NCBI GenBank assembly: GCA_964016885.1
Contig: OZ024756.1
Coordinates: 35,030,001-35,094,000 of the forward strand
Length of the DNA: 64,000 nucleotides
Source of the DNA: Eledone cirrhosa
Lineage: Eukaryota
Reading direction: 5' to 3'
Position numbers and translations under genes: made by a program. The notes beneath the pieces were generated by a model. That model was given only the letters and a program-made list of their open reading frames with translations, was not told the origin of the DNA and ran no database searches. Numbering within the stretch: the first letter of the stretch is position 1; every line of letters begins with the position of its first letter. Below are positions 34,627 to 37,600 of this stretch, piece after piece.

Positions 34627-37600
34627 GTAAGTTACACTTATCACCCTCATTTTAATACCCTTTTTTCATCCTTTATCATGTCGATGACTGACCACATCGA
34701 AGGGGCTATGTATCGACGATGTGTCAGTATTGTTAGATCTTATAGGTATAAGCTATTCTCTGTGTGCTTGTGTTTCGTTGATGCTTTTAGTGAGGCCCGA
34801 TGATGAACATTTCACCTCAGTTATCGCTCACAAATGTCAACTGGACATGTTTTATTTATTATATAAGAAAATGACATGTTTTTGAAAAAAAAAGGGCAAT
34901 CAAATATAGTTGTCTGCTGCTAGACAACAACCCAACAGACTGTAGGTGACAGAAGACAGAAACATAAAAAGAGACATTTGTGAAGAATAATTTCCCCTCC
35001 CTTGTGTTAATACGAAGTTCTCTGGTGGTGGCCACCACATGGAAAGGCATCAATATGCGTCTTTCTCTCTCTCTGTATATATATATATATAGGAAGAGAG
35101 GCAGTCAATGATGATTTAAATGTATAAATGTGATACAGTGCATTGGTAAATGTGTTTTTAGTTCCGCCCAGTTTATTTCGTGAATGTATAGACATGGTTG
35201 AATGGTAGGTGGTATATATATATATATATACACACACACACACAGTGTATGTACGCATATGAAAGACGGTGAGGGATGAATGCCATACACATTCTAATAC
35301 ATACATATCTGTCTATAGTAGAGCAGTAAATGCTTTAAGTGCTTAGAACGATGAATGGCGTATATATATATATATATATATATATATATATATATATATA
35401 TAAGATCAAAAGATGGTTAAAAGAGTTCCAAGTATTTTATTATGCGCATTTCAAAAACAAATATCATCATGGGATGATATCTGCGTTTTCATCAGATAAA
35501 ATAGGGATACATGATATGAAGCTTAAAAAACACTTGTGAATAGTGAAGTTTTAAATCAACACACACACACATATATATATATATATATATATATATATAT
35601 ATATATATATATATATATATACACACACACACATATATATGCGCCATTCATATATATAATCGATTCAATGGTGATTGACATCAAAGTCGGTGTCGACATA
35701 CAAACTATAAAGTCATCACCACCCGAAGATAAGACATCGTAATATTTATGCACCATCATTTTCATGTCGTATCTGTGTGTGTATAGATATAATTTTATAT
35801 AGTACAGCATTCATACATACAATTCTTTAATATTAAATTATGTGTTTTGTGAGTGGATAGATTAGTTGCGTATATATATATATATGCGTGTGTATGTATG
35901 TATAACGTGGTGTTGGTACTGATGAAGGGAGTTTTATGACTAATGTATTTCGAGTTATTCAACGTTATGTTGGTGATTATGTTGTGTGATGTTTCTTCTT
36001 TGGGTGGGGCGGCAAGCTGTAGTAGCACCAGTAACTGATTCTACACATACGTTACACACGCCTACTTATATATACATATATGCATATATATTTATATATG
36101 TATATACAGACACACTGCTCACACACACACAGATGTCTAAGTGTGTCGTAGACAGCCAGCCATCCAGCCAGTCTTATTACAATAATGTACTGTTGTACTA
36201 TATAACAATAACTATACATTTCTTGCTTGCTTGTTGCTCCCTCTATTTGACCCTCCTCCACACTCTTCCACTCATATATCTCTGCTTATTCTTGATGCTT
36301 TCTTTGTCTCCTTACATATATGAATGTGAATATGTGTGTATATTATATATACAAACTGTCCCCCAAAATGTATACACACTTTGATTACCAGTACAGGCAA
36401 TATTTATTAGAATGCTGTTGAAGTATGTATACGTTTTTTTGGGGCACCCTGTATATATATATATATTTATATATGTATATATATTTATATATATATATAT
36501 ATATATATATATATATATATATATATATATATATATATAAGTGGAGTCCCGAGGGGGATCGAGAAATGATCACAGTTAAAAAAGGTACTCAATACTTTGG
36601 TAGAGTATTGGCATCTTTATCATTCCTGATGAGTGAAACAGTTCTAGTCCTATAGAAGTCATTTCAATATTATATATATATATATATATATATATATATA
36701 TATATATATATATATATATATATAATTGTTTCTACTTTTGGCACAAGGCCAGCAATTACTCAGTACATTACTGGTACTTTATTTTATCGACCCCGTAAGG
36801 ATGAAAGGCAAAGTTAACCTCGGCGGGATTTGAACTCGGAATGGCAAGGACCGTAACTCTGTGCTGCAGAGCATGGTGTCCGATCCTCTACCGATATAAT
36901 GTATGTCTGTATGTTACTGTGTGTATGTAATACACTCACACACACACACGTGTATCCACCATCATTGTCAGAGATAACCCAACTAACCACACCATTGACT
37001 GACCATTTAATCCAGTTGATTAGACTTGGCTGCAGGCTGGACTAAGTCCATTACATGGCCAGTCAGTGAGAGCGGCCCTTTATCTTCATTTCTTCACCTC
37101 TCTCTTTTATATAAATGACTTCTACAGGACCAGAACTGTGTCATTCGTATGAAATCATCAGATCTATGTCTCTCTCTCTCTGTATAATATAACTTTTTTT
37201 TTCAGAAGTTCCCATTTATGCGTGTGTATATATATCCACACACACACACATTTCCCTTTACTTTTACTGGTTTCAGTCATTGGACTTGAAAGAATTTAGT
37301 TGAACAAATTGACCCCTGCTAAGTTATGGGCTATAAACAAATATGGACACACACACACATATATATATACATATATATACATAGTGGGTTTCTGCATAGT
37401 TTGTACCTGCCAAATTTCACTAACAAGGTGTTGATCAAACTGAGCCTGTAGTTGAAGACACTTGTCCAATGTGCCATGCAGTGGGATTGAACTCAAAACC
37501 ATGTGGCTGTAAAGTGAAATCCTTAACCACACAGCCATACCTCATAATATATACATTGATAGATAAATGTATGTCTAATGAAATACACTCTATCTCAAAT

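What the first reader, a model, noticed from the sequence alone, without database searches (positions are those of the whole stretch)
35433..35503. Best-preserved hammerhead: 8-bp stem I, ~15-bp stem II, palindromic TGCGCA stem III
Minus strand reads TATTTTAT CTGATGA AAAC GCAGATATCATC CCAT GATGATATTTGT TTTT GAAA TGCGCA TA^ ATAAAATA. Every core nucleotide is present and the predicted cleavage is after AUA (position 35441). It lies in TBC1D23 intron 1 between two (TA)n tracts, ~800 nt from the start codon, in antisense orientation. It is the best candidate for an active ribozyme.
Basis: partly seen in the sequence, partly recalled or inferred. Interest (0 to 1): 0.75.

Follow-up and report, generated by a model that had tools for sequence, protein, structure and literature searches.

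The report
Penelope retrotransposon stub carrying a hammerhead
This hammerhead-shaped motif is part of a 160-base dead stub of a very abundant Penelope-type jumping gene that landed backwards in an intron, so it is likely inert here, although the shared start point of thousands of such stubs likely marks where the jumping gene's RNA begins.

Summary
It is not special. The 55-nt core has 178 exact copies, and a family pattern has 31,033 matches in this genome (controls 0). It sits in a stub (35398-35561) of the terminal repeat (pLTR) of a young Penelope-like retroelement. Intact sister copies read ribozyme, 821-codon RT-endonuclease frame, ribozyme, with the motifs of the published Hydra clade, which targets (TA)n and carries such ribozymes. 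Stem II covaries across families. Stem III is predicted to form only in a dimer, and the host pre-mRNA reads the strand without a core, so this copy is likely inert. 98 of 100 sampled copies span the cut site, so they were likely copied from uncut RNA, as published in vitro for a lizard element. 38 of 100 start at one base 124 nt upstream, often behind an extra G, likely the capped transcription start. The scan noted this reading before on other DNA. New member of a known kind; cleavage untested.

The parts
35398..35561 (-). Stub of the pLTR of a Hydra-clade Penelope-like element (positions -121 to about +43 from the cut site; the 3' end merges into (TA)n between 35403 and 35398)
   Evidence: 98% identical to ends of long copies L070-L072 and L085; 40 of 40 scored places 99-100% identical over 141 nt
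35433..35503 (-). Type I hammerhead motif: stem I 8 bp, core CUGAUGA/GAAA, stem II 15 bp with one C.U mismatch, palindromic AUGCGCAU helix III, predicted cut after A at 35441
35442..35449 (-). 8-nt palindrome predicted to form helix III only between two molecules or two copies
   Evidence: monomer pairing probability about 0.001; duplex -10.5 kcal/mol; co-fold -41.1 against 2 x -14.8
35436..35441 (-). AAUAAA hexamer that straddles the predicted scissile bond
   Evidence: kept in most related families, AAUGAA in one
35555..35561 (-). 5' end of the stub, 3 nt short of the shared start of the family (-124), the likely transcription start
35361..35402 (.). (TA)21 target tract at the element's 3' end
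35562..35633 (.). (CA)n-(TA)n-(CA)n tract at the element's 5' end
34595..34626 (+). TBC1D23-like coding exon 1 ([11 protein letters not shown]); intron 1 runs 34627 to about 41707 and holds the stub

Best explanation
The motif is the hammerhead of a 160-nt stub of the terminal repeat of a high-copy Penelope-like retroelement with Hydra-clade motifs, inserted antisense in a (TA)n tract of TBC1D23 intron 1, where it is likely inert. Shown: identity with the ends of long copies, intact sister elements with a ribozyme on each side of an RT-endonuclease frame, two fixed 3' ends (+43 and +134), a sharp shared 5' end (-124), and stem II covariation. Inferred: the element's protein nicks (TA)n DNA and starts reverse transcription inside the RNA at +43 or +134 (published in vitro for a Poseidon-clade element); when this happens in the front repeat of the transcript, the enzyme copies through the uncut ribozyme and runs off the capped 5' end at -124, leaving a stub. 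Predicted: the ribozyme cuts after AUA only as a dimer through the AUGCGCAU palindrome, or with help from the element's protein; in a full transcript the two pLTR copies 3.7-3.9 kb apart could be the partners.
For: 178 exact cores; 16,597 copies of the downstream motif. Long copies run into an RT frame. 4 of 12 fetched long loci (L063, L065, L067, L069) show ribozyme, 821-aa frame, ribozyme on one strand. The protein has RWT, DKT, YRDD, CxCx5C, a GIY-YIG-like LIY..YFG and CxxC before E, and no CX2-5CxxC, as listed for Hydra PLEs in PMC8557442 section 11; its model's best PDB match is telomerase RT (E 1.1e-7). Stem II: 13 of 15 pairs with changes on both sides, 0 of 500 shuffles as high; RNAalifold finds stems I and II unaided. 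98 of 100 sampled copies span the scissile bond; 38 of 100 start at -119 to -126, 1 at +1, 1 at +10 (10 duplicate rows removed by hand). 28 of 30 two-armed insertions have one short and one long 3' end (hand tally; p 2e-7). Genome-wide at least 4,420 copies stop at -124 and 5,196 read through; 2,290 have G in place of the templated C. A second family repeats this: 307 stop against 146 with the C, G in 13 of 30. PMC11167929: two internal RT starts define the tail, both strands are extended, uncut RNA is the main template, the ribozyme cuts only with protein.
Against: No cleavage or expression was measured. No Pfam family matched the protein and the profile match to another PLE frame was weak (probability 55.7%); no tree with reference Hydra proteins was built. 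The element (3.7-3.9 kb between ribozymes) is longer than the <3 kb given for Hydra. The extra G is modest once partner-templated cases are removed (14 of 36, p 0.019), and 8 of 8 pure (TA)n junctions in this family had none. Only 2 of 78 long copies start near -124 while 15 extend beyond -170, so read-through templates are common. In the same 78 loci 9 inverted partner arms (7 independent) and 5 main arms begin within 15 nt of the cut site, which leaves room for some cut templates or for stalling at stem II. Covariation counts come from related sequences, and part of the set was found with a pattern that fixed stems I and III.
Confidence: 0.85

Rival explanations
1. The stubs end at -124 because the CATATG palindrome there lets two new cDNA ends, or a cDNA end and the (TA)n target, anneal; it is a joining hot spot and not a transcription start.
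For: Many junctions show ATA or ATAT microhomology: 29 of 95 non-read-through junctions are templated by the partner arm and 8 are pure (TA)n.
Against: Three other families start at C^ACT, which is not a palindrome, 64-90 nt before the core, one of them 31 nt behind a TATAAATA box; 50 of 95 junctions have untemplated letters; G is in excess in two families.
Confidence: 0.25
2. The 165-nt unit is an independent non-autonomous element (non-LTR retrozyme) that is cut, circularised and re-inserted.
For: Stereotyped length, high copy number and type I hammerhead, as in metazoan retrozymes (PMC7229834 passages).
Against: Copies are single or head-to-head, not tandem arrays; their ends are not at the cut site (1 of 100 at +1); the sequence runs without a break into the protein-coding element.
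Confidence: 0.05
3. The copy is an active, host-adopted ribozyme that regulates TBC1D23, for example by cutting an antisense transcript that starts in the stub or reads into it.
For: It lies 840 nt from the start codon, has an intact core, and keeps nearly all of the region just behind the likely start, where D. virilis Penelope has an internal promoter (PMC2377424 passages).
Against: Identical to 177 other cores; about one family match per 97 kb, so intronic copies are expected; host pre-mRNA lacks the core and no like partner is in the window.
Confidence: 0.04

Closest known systems
Hydra clade of Penelope-like elements, including Hydra-1_Obim of Octopus bimaculoides (Craig et al. 2021, PMC8557442; passages, section 11 and part 2 of 59 of the supplement read)
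   Same: C-terminal GIY-YIG, RW(K/T), DKT, CxCX5C linker, CxxC and CxH round the conserved E and N, (TA)n targets, sense hammerhead near the 3' end, often with A at the cut site, inverted 5'-truncated partner and one-sided tail.
   Different: Longer (3.7-3.9 kb between ribozymes; Asn-rich linker), tail about 91 nt instead of 30-40, stem II 15 bp instead of 3-7, helix III an 8-nt perfect palindrome instead of 9-10 nt with a loop, A10.1-U11.1. The listed Hydra-1_oBim ribozyme has a different sequence, so this is another family.
Hammerheads in pLTRs of metazoan PLEs (Cervera and De la Pena 2014, PMC4209133; parts 1-2 of 4 read)
   Same: Type I, long helix II, small palindromic helix III, mostly lone motifs from truncated PLEs, some close pairs on opposite strands, predicted dimer activity; low activity in vitro.
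   Different: Longer stem I (8 bp), no extra base between 9 and 10.1 in this family, no G10.1-C11.1 pair, a conserved C.Y mismatch at the fourth pair of stem II; at least 31,033 motifs against up to 9,000 per genome reported there.
PAc, Poseidon-clade PLE of Anolis (Frangieh et al. 2024, PMC11167929; parts 1-3 of 4 read)
   Same: Two fixed internal RT start sites that bound the tail, AT-rich targets, both DNA strands extended, uncut RNA as main template.
   Different: Other clade; there the ribozyme overlaps the start codon, here it lies about 150 nt before the open frame. That paper does not describe a shared 5' stop or an extra G in the parts read.
Metazoan non-LTR retrozymes (PMC7229834 passages; bioRxiv 10.64898/2026.07.22.740005 part 1 of 5)
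   Same: Short non-coding unit with a type I hammerhead, PLE-related.
   Different: No tandem units here, ends not at the cut site, sequence continuous with a coding element.

Membership tests
Type I hammerhead ribozyme (metazoan PLE type) | Core C3 U4 G5 A6 N7 G8 A9, G12 A13 A14, A15.1-U16.1, H17 | tested here: met
   All present; invariant in 22 of 22 aligned motifs except N7
Type I hammerhead ribozyme (metazoan PLE type) | Helices I and II round the core, supported by covariation | tested here: met
   Helix II 13 of 15 pairs with changes on both sides; helix I 98% paired but its double changes come from one distant motif
Type I hammerhead ribozyme (metazoan PLE type) | Helix III, as monomer or through a palindrome as dimer | tested here: inconclusive
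   Not formed as monomer (p about 0.001), formed in co-fold; prediction only
Type I hammerhead ribozyme (metazoan PLE type) | G10.1-C11.1 closing pair (highly conserved, not obligatory) | tested here: not met
   A-U here; A-U 14, G-U 7, G-C 1 of 22
Type I hammerhead ribozyme (metazoan PLE type) | Match to an Rfam hammerhead model | tested here: not met
   No hit at gathering score or E<=10
Type I hammerhead ribozyme (metazoan PLE type) | Site-specific self-cleavage | not testable with these tools
   Needs an in vitro assay
Hydra-clade Penelope-like element | Single frame with telomerase-like RT | tested here: met
   821-aa frame with YRDD; best fold match TERT; no Pfam hit
Hydra-clade Penelope-like element | C-terminal GIY-YIG endonuclease without CCHH, with CxxC before E and CxH after N | tested here: met
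   LIY..YFG, R, CNLCLNE, NRR..CLH seen in the alignment; the CxH regex had the wrong spacing and missed it; absence of CCHH judged by eye
Hydra-clade Penelope-like element | RWK, DKT and CxCX5C linker instead of CX2-5CxxC | tested here: met
   RWT (RWK in homologues), DKT, CNCRIKNKC; no CX2-5CxxC
Hydra-clade Penelope-like element | pLTRs with sense hammerhead, inverted truncated partner, one-sided tail, (TA)n targets | tested here: met
Hydra-clade Penelope-like element | Generally shorter than 3 kb (descriptive) | tested here: not met
   3.7-3.9 kb between the two ribozymes
Hydra-clade Penelope-like element | Groups with reference Hydra RTs in a tree | not tested
   No reference proteins were fetched
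Non-LTR retrozyme | Tandem units of 170-400 nt, each with a hammerhead, no coding element | tested here: not met
   Single stub in the window; sampled copies are single or head-to-head and continue into the coding element

The most novel reading that the evidence does not exclude
Thousands of these stubs are run-off copies of the capped front end of the element's uncut RNA: reverse transcription starts inside the front repeat at one of two fixed sites, passes the ribozyme and copies the cap as an extra G at -124. The genome then records the transcription start, both RT starts and the uncut state of the ribozyme for a Hydra-clade element, and places the ribozyme 124 nt behind the cap, where a dimer- or protein-triggered cut would strip the cap from the mRNA.
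Probability: 0.6. Interest if true: 0.45.

Novelty: new member of a known kind. Interest (0 to 1): 0.22.

Why it matters
As a locus it matters little: it is one of tens of thousands of ribozyme-bearing retroelement ends, and hammerheads in Hydra-clade elements, one from an octopus included, are published. The family is useful as material. It is young, has intact copies, and its ends give in-genome support, in a second clade, for the internal-priming model shown in vitro for one lizard element. If the shared start is the capped transcription start, it explains how lone and head-to-head pLTR stubs arise and makes the open question of what PLE hammerheads do testable with defined RNA ends.

Tried and rejected
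Rfam scans found no hammerhead family. Pfam and PDB sequence searches found nothing for the protein; the fold search did. First guess of a Neptune-type linker was dropped: the linker is CxCX5C. Naiad was rejected because the endonuclease is C-terminal. I looked for a pile-up of 5' ends at the cut site as a sign of cleavage in vivo: 1 of 100 short-end copies and 1 of 78 long copies lie there. Expression: no RNA holder listed. Contigs of three runs of one sample gave no joint across the insertion, so presence or absence polymorphism is untested. No related genome is held, so conservation of this insertion is untested. The bacterial promoter scan is not relevant to this genome. A sequence look-up in earlier notes found nothing. 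Seven literature searches gave no paper on cap run-off in PLEs; the one paper opened for an extra-G signature (PMC10018344, passages) was not about it, so that signature and the initiator consensus are recalled. PMC13282606 (passages) reports recent Penelope insertions in O. vulgaris and does not mention ribozymes. The bioRxiv supplements are closed and 58 of 59 parts of the Craig supplement were not read; they may hold closer families.

Full report
Observation. The minus strand of 35503-35433 reads exactly as reported. It has the whole hammerhead core, an 8-bp stem I, a stem II of 3 bp, one C.U mismatch and 12 bp, the palindrome UGCGCA between A15.1 and U16.1, and A17 at 35441. (TA)n tracts flank it. 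The host gene is TBC1D23-like: PF19430 hits three exons at 51440-56194 on +, and exon 1 (ATG 34595, donor 34627) joins in frame to an exon near 41708. The motif is therefore antisense in intron 1. Two more motifs of the same design lie in the window, at 2746-2812 (+) and 39772-39837 (-). Rfam's models do not detect any of them.

It is a repeat. A 141-nt query found 40 of 40 scored places (512 candidates) at 99-100% identity on many contigs. The exact 55-nt core occurs 178 times, a motif just downstream of the cut site 16,597 times, and a looser family pattern 31,033 times, about one per 97 kb; reversed controls gave 0 each. Good preservation therefore reflects a recent burst.

Parent element. 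Longer copies extend upstream for more than 1.9 kb into a frame with RT and endonuclease motifs. A protein search listed 119 places at 90% identity or more, many with open frames near 820 codons. In 4 of 12 long loci fetched, a sister subfamily shows ribozyme, 821-codon frame and ribozyme on one strand, 3.7-3.9 kb apart; the window's own subfamily shows the same layout with broken frames in L070 and L071. The protein has no Pfam match, but its predicted model (mean pLDDT 76.6) matches telomerase RT best. It carries RWT, DKT, YRDD, CxCX5C, a GIY-YIG-like motif, CxxC before E and CxH after N. These are the marks of the Hydra clade of Penelope-like elements in Craig et al. 2021 (PMC8557442, section 11), whose supplement lists (TA)n targets, sense-strand hammerheads and a family from Octopus bimaculoides with a different ribozyme sequence. 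No tree was built, and this element is longer than typical Hydra members. That the host is an octopus is a guess, not shown by a call. The window copy is a stub from -121 to about +43 relative to the cut site (35561-35398).

Is the RNA fold under selection? RNAalifold recovers stems I and II unaided. A C.Y mismatch at the fourth position of stem II is shared. The closing pair is A-U or G-U in 21 of 22, not the usual G-C. The sequences are related, and part of the set came from a pattern that fixed stems I and III, so only stem II is a fair test. Selection on the fold is thus at family level.

Would it cut? As a monomer helix III has a pairing probability near 0.001, and in the context of the whole stub stem I also falls to 0.01; two copies co-fold through the 8-nt palindrome at -41.1 kcal/mol against 2 x -14.8. 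This fits Cervera and De la Pena 2014 (PMC4209133), where a single metazoan PLE motif did not cut and dimers cut weakly, and Frangieh et al. 2024 (PMC11167929), where the ribozyme cut only with the element's protein. The host pre-mRNA reads the other strand, which has no CUGANGA, and no second copy with this palindrome lies in the window. This copy is most likely silent. No RNA data were available.

How the stub was made. I took the first 100 matches on contig C1 of the 16,597 (10 duplicate rows removed by hand, 100 confirmed). 98 span the scissile bond, 80 keep a full core. 3' ends fall at two sites, about +43 (58) and about +134 (42, 45 by the motif count), both joined to (TA)n. 28 of 30 two-armed insertions have one end of each kind (p 2e-7). 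This matches the published finding that two internal RT starts bound the PLE tail, that both target strands are extended, and that uncut RNA is the main template. 38 of 100 copies begin at -119 to -126, one at +1 and one at +10; 16 of the 30 best copies of the window's subfamily also begin at -121 to -125. Genome-wide, at least 4,420 copies stop at -124 and 5,196 read through. 2,290 have G where the element has C; G stood in 43 of the first 100 listed (hand count; expected 22%). After removing cases that the partner arm could template, it is 14 of 36 (p 0.019), and 8 of 8 pure (TA)n junctions lack it. Three other families start at C^ACT 64-90 nt before the core, one 31 nt behind TATAAATA; in that family 307 copies stop there against 146 with the C, with G in 13 of 30 by script and 44 of 100 by hand. 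I read this as run-off at a capped transcription start with the cap copied as G; the cap-G signature and the initiator consensus are recalled, not from a call. D. virilis Penelope has a TATA-less internal promoter in the pLTR (PMC2377424 passages) and a rotifer pLTR has a TCACT initiator-like site (PMC3846280 passages). Against: only 2 of 78 long copies start near -124 and 15 extend beyond -170, so read-through RNA is also copied; and 5 main arms and 9 partner arms (7 independent) start within 15 nt of the cut site, which may be cut RNA or stalling at stem II. Annealing at the CATATG palindrome is the main rival.

Relation to earlier notes of this scan. One search showed a note on two fixed outer ends in another family before I ran the 100-copy test. 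The cap reading was formed; one search then showed that other agents reached it in this and other genomes. These notes are not independent support.

Verdict. Observation confirmed; interpretation partly supported. It is an ordinary stub of a new family of a known clade, with a known kind of ribozyme motif. Interest 0.22. The most novel reading, cap run-off from uncut RNA, has probability about 0.6 and would deserve about 0.45.

Noticed in passing
window 39679-40042: Second Penelope-like insertion in TBC1D23 intron 1, from another family, two-armed; the intact hammerhead (39772-39837) is again antisense and the sense arm lacks the first half of the core.
   Followed up: partly
window 2625-2884: Third hammerhead-bearing stub, + strand, of the family whose start lies 31 nt behind a TATA-like box.
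   Followed up: partly
window 35351-35360 and 35642-35651: The unique flanks of the insertion carry a 10-bp inverted repeat, each next to a (TA)n tract; possibly a fold-back copy of the target flank made during insertion.
   Followed up: no
window 35436-35441 (-): An AAUAAA hexamer straddles the predicted cut site and is kept in most related families, so cutting would destroy a possible poly(A) signal.
   Followed up: no
L067:1677-4139: The intact protein has a roughly 75-residue Asn/Ser/Thr-rich low-confidence insert between RT and the zinc-finger linker that the 12 aligned homologues lack.
   Followed up: no
L028:384-463 and 1238-1317; L073:6594-6674; L083:2270-2330; L068 near 6261: Unrelated, more G+C-rich hammerhead families with the same 6-nt palindromic helix III, one as an inverted pair.
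   Followed up: no
L031:5035-6168 (-): A different Penelope-like frame with Pfam RVT_1 and GIY-YIG hits lies beside a copy of this family.
   Followed up: partly
window 21435-21498 (+): Weak tRNA-family match at 29.9 bits, possibly the head of a tRNA-derived SINE.
   Followed up: no
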